From Thermoplasmata archaeon (GTDB taxonomy: Archaea; Thermoplasmatota; Thermoplasmata; Lutacidiplasmatales; UBA184), in the NCBI GenBank assembly GCA_021796385.1, contig JAJYXQ010000043.1, forward strand, positions 137,652-201,651: 64,000 bases of DNA, in the 5' to 3' direction. This document shows positions 7,630 to 54,612 of this stretch, piece by piece (position 1 is the first letter of the stretch; every line of letters starts with the position of its first letter). The notes under the pieces were generated by a model, which saw only the letters and a list, made by a program, of their open reading frames with translations, did not search any database and had not been told where the DNA came from. The position numbers and the translations under genes are program-made.

Positions 7630-7704
7630 TAGCGGGGCATGGATTTGAACCATGGATCTACGGGTTATGAGCCCGTCGGGATGACCTGACTACCCTACCC
7701 CGCT
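7630..7704 (-). tRNA. Initiator tRNA-Met (CAT)
   Basis: AGCGGGG..CCCCGCT-A acceptor with A1:U72, anticodon arm ACGGG-CT-CAT-AA-CCCGT with three G:C pairs, GGTTCAAATCC T-arm; TTAAATA about 25 nt upstream. Confidence 0.97.
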
Positions 7705-21039: not shown

Positions 21040-21366
21040 CTAATCGAGCCGTCCTTCAGTGATGATACGATAATGGATCGTGCGGCCTGCGGTCGGGGAG
21101 ATCCGTCGGATCTCCACGATGCGGCCCACAAGGTTCTCGTTCGCAGCGATGGCTGCGCGGTACGTGGGGTCGTTGGCCAGGCCCGGGTCGTAGAGCGTGA
21201 TCTTGGGCAACCGGTCCGGCGTCGTCGCGAACTGGGCCATGACCTTCATGCCTTCCTCATGCGTGAGGAGTACATGCTCGGGGACCATGTTGTGGCGGAC
21301 AAAGTCGGTACCCTGGAGCGCATCCTTCGGATTCGCCCCCTTCTTCTTCGAGGTTTTCGCTGGCAT
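21040..21366 (-). CDS. rpoH: RNA polymerase subunit H (Rpo5)
   Basis: [25 protein letters not shown]; start moved to ATG 21366 because the longer ORF overlaps the tRNA. Confidence 0.93.
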
Positions 21367-21398
21367 CTTTTCAACACTCCTTGGAATGGGAAATGGGG

Positions 21399-21537
21399 CG
21401 GGCCCGCGGGGAGTTCCGGAGAGGGAGCCGGTACGGCTCCCCACCTTTCGAACCCCGGACCAACCGGTTAAAAGCCGGATGCTCTGTCCCGGGCCAGGGC
21501 TGGTGCCCAGCGGCCTGCCGGGCTGAGCTACGGACCC
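21399..21537 (-). tRNA. tRNA-Lys (TTT) with two non-canonical introns (21486-21516 at 20/21; 21413-21446 at 59/60)
   Basis: Removing both inserts gives a 74-nt cloverleaf GGGTCCG-TA-GCTC-AGCCCGGCA-GAGC-A-TCCGG-CTTTTAA-CCGGT-TGGTC-CGGGG-TTCGAAT-CCCCG-CGGGCCC-G; both inserts fold as BHB/BHL. Confidence 0.92.
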
Positions 21538-21546
21538 ACCCCAACT

Positions 21547-21873
21547 TCACGGCAAACTCTCCAGGCGGCTTATCACAGACCAGAGAGACGTACGGCCATG
21601 CACGGGAAGGTTCGAATCGTTTGCAAGATCGTCTAGGATGCCGACGGCGCTGGCCACCCGAACATCGACGGCGACCGTCTCCTTGTTCAGCGCTTCGAGG
21701 GCGCCTTGGATGCCCCGACGGAGGTTTCGAGGGAGGGAAGTGTCTTGGGTGAGCTCGTGCAGGAGGTCAAGCACCCCCTTCATCGACCCGACGGCAGTGG
21801 CCGAGGGGGTGTCCGAGGGCTTCCCGATCCCCCCAGCGGGGACCCCTTGGGCTGGAGTAGATGAAAGATTCAT
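21547..21873 (-). CDS. UPF0147 family protein
   Basis: DTSLPRNLRR, LDDLANDSNLPVHGRT.LW.VIS.LE. Confidence 0.85.
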   Translation of the reverse strand: MNLSSTPAQGVPAGGIGKPSDTPSATAVGSMKGVLDLLHELTQDTSLPRNLRRGIQGALEALNKETVAVDVRVASAVGILDDLANDSNLPVHGRTSLWSVISRLESLP

Positions 21874-54447: not shown

Positions 54448-54612
54448 GGGAAGGGTTTCCGGATGGCGGATGCGGGCCCGCCGGGAGTTTCGGGTCCTTA
54501 TCGCTCCTCATGGATGGGTTTCGAGCGACGGACCTTTCGAACCCGGGTTCAAGGCTCCGGAGGCCTTTGTGATGTCCAAGCTATACTACGGGCCCACACG
54601 TCAGCGTGATGC

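What the first reader, a model, noticed from the sequence alone, without database searches (positions are those of the whole stretch)
21399..21537. tRNA-Lys(UUU) interrupted by two non-canonical introns (D-loop 20/21 and T-loop 59/60)
Seen: on the minus strand, removing a 31-nt insert (21516-21486) and a 34-nt insert (21446-21413) gives a clean 74-nt cloverleaf. The T-loop insert forms a full BHB: T-stem CGGGG/CCCCG, bulges AAA and ACT, central helix TTCG/CGGA, long GGGAGCCG/CGGCTCCC hairpin. The D-loop insert has central helix CCCG/CGGG, bulge GCA and stem GGCC/GGCC, but the other side is an AG/ACA internal loop (relaxed BHL). Cutting after the second nt of each bulge restores canonical D- and T-loops. 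Known: multiple non-37/38 introns are best documented in Thermoproteales, nitrososphaerotes and some DPANN lineages, and relaxed motifs need broad-specificity EndA, while Thermoplasma-type alpha2 EndA prefers strict BHB. Inference: this Thermoplasmata-like lineage may have an unusual splicing endonuclease and more hidden split tRNAs. The locus is easily mis-annotated as an rpoH N-terminal extension.
Basis: partly seen in the sequence, partly recalled or inferred. Interest (0 to 1): 0.85.

Follow-up and report, generated by a model that had tools for sequence, protein, structure and literature searches.

The report
Lysine tRNA gene with two introns
This is a real lysine tRNA gene interrupted by two short archaeal-type introns, a layout shared by many uncultured relatives, and it matters mainly because their cutting enzyme is of a type thought to handle only simpler cases.

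Summary
Confirmed. On the minus strand, 21537-21399 holds a 139-nt pre-tRNA. Removing 21516-21486 (31 nt, D-loop 20/21) and 21446-21413 (34 nt, T-loop 59/60) leaves 74 nt that ARAGORN calls tRNA-Lys(UUU). The unspliced locus is invisible to ARAGORN and Rfam.

Both inserts are true bulge-helix-bulge introns. In 121 distinct orthologues the exons are conserved, the inserts vary, and their helices covary. Natural intron-less orthologues match both predicted junctions exactly. It is the only Lys(UUU) candidate in the assembly.

The T-loop motif is strict. The D-loop motif is relaxed: its 3' site lies in a conserved 2x3 internal loop.

The "unusual endonuclease" inference is not supported. EndA is an ordinary fused two-unit (alpha'2-like) protein with no specificity-loop insertion. 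The same type occurs in 379 of 401 class genomes.

The "more hidden tRNAs" inference holds: seven further tRNA genes here carry 59/60 introns.

The D-loop intron gene was found in 134 of 401 sampled class genomes, so it is not unique. I found no paper describing it. No RNA evidence was obtainable.

The parts
21399..21537 (-). Whole pre-tRNA-Lys(UUU), 139 nt, from G1 (21537) to the discriminator G73 (21399). No CCA is encoded.
   Evidence: The locus is conserved in 24 of 24 same-family genomes.
21517..21537 (-). Exon 1 (21 nt): acceptor 5' strand, U8 A9, D-stem 5' strand, D-loop positions 14-20.
   Evidence: The exon columns are conserved, with a mean entropy of 0.32 bits across 104 orthologues.
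21486..21516 (-). Intron 1 (31 nt) between positions 20 and 21. Central 4-bp helix: 21522-21519 pairs with 21491-21488. The 5' splice site lies in the 3-nt bulge 21518-21516. The 3' splice site lies in 21487-21485, opposite A14 and G15, forming a 2x3 internal loop (relaxed, HBh'-like).
   Evidence: Pair 17a:i(n-4) is paired in 116 of 116 sequences with three pair types. Pair i4:i(n-8) is paired in 106 of 116 with five pair types. Intron-less orthologues fix the junction.
21447..21485 (-). Exon 2 (39 nt): A21, D-stem 3' strand, anticodon arm (anticodon UUU), variable loop, T-stem 5' strand, T-loop positions 54-59.
   Evidence: This is the most conserved part of the locus in relatives.
21413..21446 (-). 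Intron 2 (34 nt) between positions 59 and 60. Central helix: 21452-21449 pairs with 21418-21415. Bulges: 21448-21446 and 21414-21412. The outer helix is the T-stem and the inner helix is a long hairpin. This is a strict 3-4-3 hBHBh' motif.
   Evidence: The helix-H pairs are kept in 100-107 of 108 sequences. The inner-helix pairs covary with six pair types each. Intron-less T-loops in orthologues read as the predicted junction.
21399..21412 (-). Exon 3 (14 nt): U60, T-stem 3' strand, acceptor 3' strand, G73.
21040..21366 (-). Neighbour: the rpoH gene (RNA polymerase subunit H/Rpb5 C-terminal domain). Its ATG lies 33 nt downstream of the tRNA. The longer GTG-start ORF (to 21444) would overlap the tRNA.
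   Evidence: ORFs. (PF01191, E 1e-14).
21547..21873 (-). Neighbour: the UPF0147 family gene. Its stop codon ends 10 nt upstream of the tRNA 5' end, so the tRNA has no free upstream spacer. No promoter was identified.
   Evidence: (PF03685, E 2.9e-26).

Best explanation
This is the functional, apparently single-copy tRNA-Lys(UUU) gene of an uncultured Thermoplasmata archaeon. It is transcribed as a 139-nt (or longer) precursor.

In the precursor, D-loop nucleotides 16-18 and T-loop nucleotides 54-57 pair with the 3' ends of two inserts. Each insert is thereby presented as a bulge-helix-bulge motif.

The genome's one splicing endonuclease is a fused two-unit, alpha'2-like EndA. It would cut after the second nucleotide of each 3-nt bulge, at four cuts in all. 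An RtcB-type ligase would then join the three exons (21 + 39 + 14 nt) into a 74-nt tRNA, and CCA would be added afterwards.

Shown here: the gene anatomy, the conserved motifs with compensatory changes, the exact junctions (by intron-less orthologues), and the presence and type of EndA.

Inferred: that EndA is the enzyme that cuts both introns, including the relaxed 3' site of the D-loop intron; the order of the steps; and ligation by RtcB.
For: - Removing the two inserts gives a canonical tRNA-Lys(UUU). Nothing is called without removal.
- Orthologues: 24 of 24 same-family genomes hold the locus. Of 137 parsed loci, 121 have both inserts, 14 have only the D insert and 2 have only the T insert. 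The set was mostly chosen by a pattern that requires a D insert.
- Exon columns are conserved (0.32 bits). Anchored intron columns are variable (1.24 and 1.51 bits).
- Helices covary. For intron 1, 946 of 1044 cells are paired against a shuffle mean of 715 and maximum of 748. For intron 2, 842 of 972 are paired against a mean of 680 and maximum of 707. Slid registers score lower at the covarying pairs. Pair types are listed.
- Junctions: intron-less D-loops in 67 of 401 class genomes have the same D-loop length as the predicted product in nearly all matches. One genus (g38) of family f17, whose other genera carry the intron, reads exactly as the predicted ligation. Intron-less T-loops (13 distinct sequences) read TTCGAAT or a close variant. 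A same-genus genome (L005) has it.
- Need for the gene: no other Lys(UUU) was found by ARAGORN or Rfam. Only 1 of 21 UUU-anticodon-like hairpins in the assembly sits in a tRNA context. AAA codons are in use: 3 of 55 Lys codons in rpoB and 1 of 7 in rpoH.
- Enzymes: EndA has two PF02778 + PF01974 units in one frame. The catalytic Tyr/His/Lys align with the M. jannaschii enzyme in the C-terminal unit. Tyr and His are replaced by Val and Pro in the N-terminal unit. RtcB is present in 38 of 41 relatives.
Against: - No RNA evidence exists. No RNA run was listed as holding the stretch and nothing was laid on it, so splicing itself was not observed.
- RtcB (PF01139) was not found in this assembly. 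The assembly is 92% complete, and the gene is present in 3 of the 4 other genomes of the genus.
- The 3' splice site of the D-loop intron is not in a clean bulge. Published passages say an alpha'2 enzyme (A. fulgidus) gave no clear release of a comparable M. kandleri D-loop intron (PMC5829648).
- The outermost pair of helix H in intron 1 (16:i(n-2)) is paired in only 84 of 116 orthologues.
- The thermodynamic MFE of the precursor is not the BHB fold. It is 3.5-3.9 kcal/mol more stable.
- The anticodon stem has a U.U at 27:43 in this genus.
- A second Lys(UUU) gene in the missing 8% of the genome cannot be excluded.
Confidence: 0.92

Rival explanations
1. Same gene, but the D-loop intron is cut one nucleotide further 3' at the 5' site and one nucleotide further 5' at the 3' site (register B). 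Helix H would then be 17-19 plus 17a, pairing one step further in. The mature tRNA would have an 11-nt D-loop.
For: G19 can pair with the same intron C that intron nucleotide 2 pairs with: 19:i(n-6) is paired in 110 of 116 sequences and i2:i(n-6) in 111 of 116. The comparison of pairs therefore cannot separate the two registers. The MFE fold of this sequence actually uses the G19 pair.
Against: Intron-less orthologues have the short D-loop that register A predicts, including genus g38 inside an intron-bearing family. The Lys(CUU) isoacceptor of the same genome also has it. Register B would place the 3' site in an even larger (3x4) internal loop.
Confidence: 0.05
2. The relaxed D-loop intron is not handled by EndA alone. 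It needs the folded tRNA body (for example A14 and G15 held by U8 and C48) or an unknown helper protein or nuclease for the 3' cut.
For: The 2x3 loop (A14 G15 opposite N N A21) is invariant in layout across 116 orthologues. The EndA catalytic unit has no known specificity loop. Published passages report that loop-less enzymes cut such a site poorly (PMC5829648).
Against: No candidate helper was looked for or found. The same EndA type is the only family member detected. This rival refines the mechanism rather than offering a different identity for the locus.
Confidence: 0.2
3. The locus is a decaying tRNA pseudogene with two insertions, or the inserts stay in the mature RNA.
For: No expression data exist. 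Standard tRNA finders reject the locus.
Against: The locus is conserved in 134 of 401 class genomes with compensatory changes in the insert helices. It is the sole Lys(UUU) candidate. The inserts sequester the G18/G19 and T54-C56 elbow nucleotides, so an unspliced RNA could not fold as a tRNA.
Confidence: 0.02
4. The stretch is protein-coding: an N-terminal extension of RpoH starting at the GTG at 21444.
For: An open frame of 134 aa runs from 21444.
Against: The Rpb5 domain starts at residue 23 of the 108-aa ATG form. The upstream stretch is conserved as RNA structure with covariation, not as codons. The extension would begin inside intron 2, whose sequence is not conserved even within the genus.
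Confidence: 0.01

Closest known systems
Methanopyrus kandleri pre-tRNA-Glu(UUC) with a relaxed HBh' intron at 20b/21 in the D-loop plus a second intron (PMC5829648, passages read)
   Same: It is a euryarchaeal tRNA with two introns, one of them in the D-loop just before A21. That intron has one proper bulge and one disrupted site. The endonuclease lacks a specificity loop.
   Different: The second intron there is canonical (37/38), whereas here it is at 59/60. The enzyme there is an (alpha-beta)2 heterotetramer, whereas here it is one fused two-unit polypeptide. The tRNA identity differs.
ARMAN-2 (Ca. Micrarchaeum) pre-tRNA-Cys(GCA) with a 59/60 intron, and pre-tRNA-Pro(GGG) with two T-loop introns at 53/54 and 59/60 (PMC3239211, passages read)
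   Same: The intron sits at exactly 59/60 in the T-loop. The Pro example has a strict hBHBh' motif. There are multiple introns outside the anticodon loop.
   Different: That organism has a three-unit epsilon2 EndA with a specific loop that confers broad specificity. The enzyme here lacks that insert. The lineage differs (DPANN against Thermoplasmata).
Multiple-intron tRNA genes and intron 'transposition' in Thermoproteales (Sugahara 2008 and Fujishima 2010, known to me only through passages of the review PMC4090602, and from recall)
   Same: Many tRNA genes of one genome carry non-canonical BHB introns at recurring positions; 20/21 and 59/60 are both on the review's list. Introns come and go between close relatives: here Arg(CCG) has a 59/60 intron in 4 of 5 genomes of the genus and in 0 of 18 loci from other genera of the family.
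   Different: Those archaea have (alpha-beta)2 EndA with the Crenarchaea-specific loop. Sequence similarity among the eight T-loop introns here is weak (best pair z 4.6, mean z 1.0 over 28 pairs), so recent transposition is not shown.
[quoted passage not shown]
   Same: Introns interrupt both elbow-forming arms of one tRNA.
   Different: That is a eukaryotic nuclear gene with a different endonuclease complex.

Membership tests
Archaeal endonuclease-type (BHB) tRNA intron | Removing the insert restores a canonical cloverleaf with the conserved tRNA nucleotides. | tested here: met
   the 74-nt product is called tRNA-Lys(ttt), and the unspliced sequence is not called.
Archaeal endonuclease-type (BHB) tRNA intron | The exon-intron boundaries form a 4-bp helix flanked by two 3-nt bulges on opposite strands, with the cuts after the second bulge nucleotide. 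| tested here: met
   Intron 2 meets this fully. In intron 1 the helix and the 5' bulge meet it, while the 3' site lies in a 2x3 loop (see the next family). Registers are supported by covariation and slid controls.
Archaeal endonuclease-type (BHB) tRNA intron | Exons are conserved and introns variable, with compensatory changes in the intron helices across species. | tested here: met
   121 distinct sequences, entropy 0.32 against 1.24 and 1.51 bits, and up to 6 pair types per inner-helix pair.
Archaeal endonuclease-type (BHB) tRNA intron | Intron-less orthologues equal the predicted ligated product. | tested here: met
   D-loop: (67 of 401 genomes, including genus g38 inside an intron-bearing family). 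T-loop.
Archaeal endonuclease-type (BHB) tRNA intron | The splicing endonuclease and an RNA ligase are encoded by the organism. | tested here: inconclusive
   EndA is present. RtcB was not found in this 92%-complete assembly but is present in 38 of 41 relatives.
Archaeal endonuclease-type (BHB) tRNA intron | The spliced RNA or excised (circular) intron is observed. | not testable with these tools
   No RNA run was listed as holding the stretch, and nothing was laid on it.
Strict hBHBh' motif (the substrate class of alpha4 and alpha'2 enzymes) | Both 3-nt bulges are flanked directly by helices on both sides (3-4-3). | tested here: not met
   This is met for the T-loop intron but not for the D-loop intron. 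A14 and G15 face the 3' bulge and cannot pair with G22 and A23. The gene as a whole therefore needs an enzyme that accepts a relaxed site.
alpha'2-type EndA (the protein, on contig C79, outside the window) | Two tandem endonuclease units in one polypeptide. | tested here: met
   PF02778 and PF01974 each match in two stretches; the two halves align at 24% identity over 159 residues.
alpha'2-type EndA (the protein, on contig C79, outside the window) | Only the C-terminal unit keeps the catalytic Tyr-His-Lys. | tested here: met
   Tyr, His and Lys align with the M. jannaschii chain 1a79; the N-terminal unit has Val and Pro at the Tyr and His positions. That these three residues are the triad is stated for M. 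kandleri in PMC5829648 and otherwise recalled.
alpha'2-type EndA (the protein, on contig C79, outside the window) | It forms a homodimer. | not tested
   No complex prediction was run.
Broad-specificity EndA (with a CSL/L1, ASL/L2 or L3 loop) | An inserted specific loop with a conserved lysine in the catalytic unit. | tested here: not met
   the catalytic unit (residues 219-383) aligns with M. jannaschii residues 3-167 with no net insertion. Against ARMAN-2 (4fz2) the query lacks the extra residues next to the catalytic His. This is a sequence alignment only; no structure was modelled.
Split or permuted tRNA gene | The exons are encoded at separate loci or in permuted order. | tested here: not met
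   All three exons are collinear on one strand within 139 nt.

The most novel reading that the evidence does not exclude
A large part of the class Thermoplasmata, Methanomassiliicoccales-labelled genomes included, carries a dynamic population of non-canonical tRNA introns: 20/21 in Lys(UUU), and 59/60 in at least eight tRNAs of this genome. These are gained and lost at genus level. Some have relaxed motifs (a 2x3 loop, a mismatched central helix, a 4-nt bulge). Yet the only endonuclease is a loop-less alpha'2-type EndA. If that enzyme cuts these sites unaided, the accepted rule would be wrong for a whole euryarchaeal radiation. That rule says relaxed and multiple introns co-evolve with (alpha-beta)2 or epsilon2 enzymes bearing a specificity loop.
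Probability: 0.4. Interest if true: 0.6.

Novelty: new member of a known kind. Interest (0 to 1): 0.45.

Why it matters
Reviews state that Euryarchaeota with alpha4 or alpha'2 endonucleases have few intron-bearing tRNA genes, each with one strict intron at 37/38 (PMC4090602). They also state that only loop-bearing (alpha-beta)2 and epsilon2 enzymes remove relaxed introns (PMC5829648).

This lineage does not fit that picture. At least 8 tRNA genes are interrupted outside the anticodon loop. One has two introns. Several motifs are relaxed. The enzyme is alpha'2-like and loop-less.

There are three consequences:
- tRNA counts for these MAGs are underestimates when made with tools that do not model such introns. 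Here 32 tRNAs pass the Rfam cut-off in a 92%-complete genome.
- The lineage offers a direct test of the enzyme-substrate co-evolution model.
- Both introns tie up the D-loop and T-loop nucleotides that form the tRNA elbow, so splicing probably has to precede elbow-dependent maturation steps. This last point is inference.

Tried and rejected
- RNA evidence. The look-up of sequencing runs listed no RNA holder. Three metatranscriptome runs of one study were offered with next to none of the words. Read laying on 21340-21600 laid nothing. This says nothing about expression.
- Literature. Eight full-text searches returned no paper describing non-canonical tRNA introns in Thermoplasmata or Methanomassiliicoccales. 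Searches returned zero papers. Marck & Grosjean 2003 (PMC1370505) and Sugahara 2007 (PMC1852824) are not held. Supplementary files were not opened. The supplementary tRNA tables of PMC5829648 and PMC3239211 may list Thermoplasmata cases that I could not see. GtRNAdb and tRNAscan-SE 2 could not be consulted.
- ARAGORN with its intron option on the whole genome. It gave 52 calls, many with implausible introns of hundreds to thousands of nt, so it is not usable as an inventory.
- SPLITS-like scan of my own. Single-intron removal worked. The two-intron round was dominated by ARAGORN false calls, and only the Lys gene survived the acceptor/D-arm filter. These tRNAs were still not located: Gly GCC/UCC, Val GAC/UAC, Leu UAA, Pro UGG and a third CAU tRNA. 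Arg(GCG) at C77:8912 has an insert in the D-arm that I did not resolve. The count of eight is therefore a lower bound.
- Link between EndA type and the intron. This was rejected. The same two-unit protein is found in families with no D-intron pattern match (f6: 43 of 46 have EndA and 0 of 46 match the pattern).
- Recent transposition among the eight T-loop introns. The evidence is only weak.
- Thermodynamic folding as proof. The MFE is not the BHB fold and the z-score is -2.23.
- Promoter. The bacterial-type scan tool was not used because the organism is an archaeon, and no promoter was assigned.
- The exact-match patterns found neither form in 200 of 401 genomes. Those genomes are 'not found with these patterns', not 'absent'.
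Full report
**What is there**

Read on the minus strand, window 21537-21399 is 139 nt. Neither ARAGORN nor the Rfam tRNA model at gathering score sees a tRNA here. Each reports only tRNA-Met at 7630-7704.

Cutting out 21516-21486 (31 nt) and 21446-21413 (34 nt) leaves 21 + 39 + 14 = 74 nt. ARAGORN calls this tRNA-Lys(UUU) with a regular cloverleaf:
- a 7-bp acceptor stem with one G-U;
- a 4-bp D-stem;
- a 9-nt D-loop with A14, G18, G19 and A21;
- a 7-nt T-loop;
- G73 as discriminator;
- one blemish, a U.U at 27:43.

Removing only one of the two inserts gives nothing, or a distorted call.

**Are the inserts introns?**

Each insert can pair with the loop it interrupts.

In the T-loop, nucleotides 54-57 pair with the four intron nucleotides that precede its last two. 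This leaves 58, 59 and the first intron nucleotide as one 3-nt bulge. The last two intron nucleotides plus U60 form the other bulge. The T-stem lies outside and a long hairpin lies inside. This is a strict 3-4-3 bulge-helix-bulge motif.

In the D-loop, nucleotides 16-18 pair likewise. G19, C20 and the first intron nucleotide form a proper bulge next to a GGCC/GGCC stem. The 3' site (two intron nucleotides plus A21) faces A14 and G15, giving a 2x3 internal loop.

All pairs of this combined structure are canonical. It scores -72.2 kcal/mol, against -76.1 for the MFE, which pairs both loops slightly differently. The fold z-score is only -2.23. Energy alone therefore proves little.

**Comparative evidence**

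- *Presence in relatives.* A BLAST of the 139 nt against 40 relatives found the locus in 24 of 24 genomes of the same family and in several other families of the class.
Most are labelled Thermoplasmata, Thermoplasmatota or Methanomassiliicoccales MAGs. A few are Woesearchaeota, Nitrososphaerales and others whose inserts lie elsewhere.
- *Parsing.* I could parse the whole gene in 137 of 158 loci: 121 have both inserts, 14 only the D insert and 2 only the T insert. Most of this set was chosen by requiring a D insert, so it measures co-occurrence, not prevalence.
- *Conservation.* Among 121 distinct sequences, exon columns are nearly invariant (0.32 bits), while intron columns anchored at either end vary (1.24 and 1.51 bits).
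- *Covariation, D-loop intron.* Pair 17a:i(n-4) is paired in 116 of 116 sequences with A-U, C-G and U-G. Pair i4:i(n-8) is paired in 106 of 116 with five pair types.
- *Covariation, T-loop intron.* The inner-helix pairs each show six pair types.
- *Controls.* Paired cells (946 of 1044 and 842 of 972) exceed every one of 500 column shuffles (maxima 748 and 707). Slid registers score lower at the covarying pairs. Relatedness inflates such tests, but the number of pair types does not depend on it.

**Junctions**

Nature supplies the controls.
- A same-genus genome (L005) has an uninterrupted T-loop. Another family (L032/L167) has an uninterrupted D-loop.
- In a class-wide sample, the D-insert form was found in 134 of 401 genomes: family f1 57 of 59, f17 35 of 44, f10 8 of 10, f28 8 of 8.
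- The insert-less form was found in 67 of 401: f1 0 of 59, f20 32 of 43, f15 8 of 8, f21 6 of 6.
- Neither exact pattern was found in the remaining 200.
- Inside family f17, genus g38 carries the insert-less D-loop. It reads exactly as the ligation product predicted from its intron-bearing sister genera, and its T-loop intron is still present.

This fixes the cut between positions 20 and 21. It argues against the alternative register that the G-rich sequence would also allow. The pair counts cannot separate the two registers, since G19 and intron nucleotide 2 compete for the same C.

**Is the gene needed?**

- ARAGORN and Rfam find Lys(CUU) but no other Lys(UUU) in the assembly.
- Of 21 UUU-anticodon-like hairpins, only this one has a D-arm and T-arm around it.
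- AAA codons are rare but used: 3 of 55 Lys codons in rpoB and 1 of 7 in rpoH.
- The assembly is 92% complete, so a second copy cannot be strictly excluded.

**The enzyme**

PF01974 hits one open frame on contig C79 twice. A third hit elsewhere is below the cut-off.

The 387-aa protein has two PF02778 + PF01974 units, and the halves align with each other at 24% identity. The C-terminal unit aligns with the M. jannaschii enzyme (1a79) over 165 residues with no net insertion. It keeps the Tyr, His and Lys that align with the catalytic positions. Against the ARMAN-2 enzyme (4fz2) it lacks the extra residues beside the His. The N-terminal unit has Val and Pro in place of Tyr and His.

This is therefore a fused structural-plus-catalytic, alpha'2-like EndA without a recognisable specificity loop, judged by sequence alignment only.

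A protein of this type was found in 379 of 401 class genomes. These include families where the D-insert pattern never matched (f6: 43 of 46 with ~49% identity over residues 43-387).

RtcB was not found in this assembly but is present in 38 of 41 relatives. I take its absence here to be an assembly gap.

**More hidden tRNAs**

Only 32 Rfam tRNA matches pass the cut-off in this genome. The weak matches, read by eye and by a splice-and-rescan script, are tRNAs with an insert right after position 59:
- Asp(GUC);
- Arg(UCU);
- Asn(GUU);
- Gln(CUG);
- Arg(CCG);
- Ala(GGC);
- His(GUG).

With Lys(UUU) that makes eight. Five have a strict motif. Asn and Ala have a mismatch in the central helix at A57. 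Gln needs either a mismatch or a 4-nt bulge. Several isoacceptors remain unfound, so eight is a lower bound.

Arg(CCG) lies in this window (54473-54595, minus strand). Of 28 parsed orthologous loci, 7 have its T-loop intron and 21 do not. The 7 are the four genus-g1 loci from G000, G001, G002 and G004, plus three of family f2. The 21 include all 18 from other genera of family f1 and the G003 locus of genus g1. The one genome of the genus that lacks it (G003) also lacks the T-loop intron of Lys(UUU). These introns are therefore gained or lost at genus level. Sequence similarity among the eight introns is weak.

**Comparison with what is known**

- Positions 20/21 and 59/60 are on the published list of non-canonical sites (PMC4090602).
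- M. kandleri tRNA-Glu has a relaxed D-loop intron at 20b/21 (PMC5829648).
- ARMAN-2 tRNAs have 59/60 introns (PMC3239211).

The kind is therefore known. What differs is the host. The same papers state that Euryarchaeota with alpha4 or alpha'2 enzymes have few, single, strict, canonical introns. They also state that an alpha'2 enzyme gave no clear release of the M. kandleri D-loop intron. I found no paper on such introns in Thermoplasmata or Methanomassiliicoccales. Two key older papers, all supplements and GtRNAdb were out of reach.

**Verdict**

- Splicing itself is inferred, not observed. No RNA data could be obtained.
- The gene is one member of a widespread, apparently undescribed population of non-canonical introns in this class. 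It is a new member of a known kind.
- The interesting open point is how a loop-less alpha'2-type EndA deals with the relaxed sites.

Counts include three genomes flagged unpublished (G120, G228, G315). No sequence from them is given here.

Noticed in passing
window 54473-54595 (minus strand): A second hidden tRNA lies in the window. It is tRNA-Arg(CCG) with a 49-nt intron at 59/60 (intron 54487-54535) and a strict BHB motif. Rfam scores it at only 18.3 bits. The intron is present in 7 of 28 parsed orthologous loci: four genomes of this genus and three of another family. It is absent from 18 loci of other genera of the same family.
   Followed up: yes
own genome: C8:43219, C34:62522, C34:~35168(-), C56:~1307(-), C71:139, C74(-): Six further tRNA genes outside the window carry 31-34-nt introns at 59/60: Asp GUC, Arg UCU, Asn GUU, Gln CUG, Ala GGC and His GUG. 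Asn and Ala have a mismatch in the central helix at A57. Gln needs a mismatch or a 4-nt bulge.
   Followed up: partly
own genome C77:8912-8980: tRNA-Arg(GCG) scores below the Rfam cut-off (26.5 bits) and appears to carry an insert inside the D-arm. I did not work out its boundaries.
   Followed up: no
own genome, whole: RtcB (PF01139) was not found in this 92%-complete assembly, although 38 of 41 relatives have it. This is probably an assembly gap.
   Followed up: partly
L005 (G003, same genus) and L176: One genome of the genus lacks the T-loop intron in both Lys(UUU) and Arg(CCG) but keeps the D-loop intron of Lys(UUU). This may reflect a lineage-wide loss of 59/60 introns.
   Followed up: partly
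own genome C79 (L040:1168-2331): The EndA reading frame stays open for about 235 codons upstream of the likely ATG. It overlaps the end of an orotate-phosphoribosyltransferase-like ORF, whose name I judged by eye from its sequence and did not test. The N-terminal ~40 residues of EndA are poorly conserved among relatives; matches start at residues 8-45.
   Followed up: no
window 21537-21549: The tRNA starts 10 nt after the stop codon of the upstream UPF0147 gene and ends 33 nt before the rpoH start codon. It may therefore be co-transcribed with its neighbours. No promoter was identified.
   Followed up: no
own genome C75:162792-162961: tRNA-Trp(CCA) carries a long anticodon-loop intron (ARAGORN reports 95 nt). 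Such introns are known to host a C/D box RNA in other archaea (review passage in PMC4090602). I did not examine this one.
   Followed up: no
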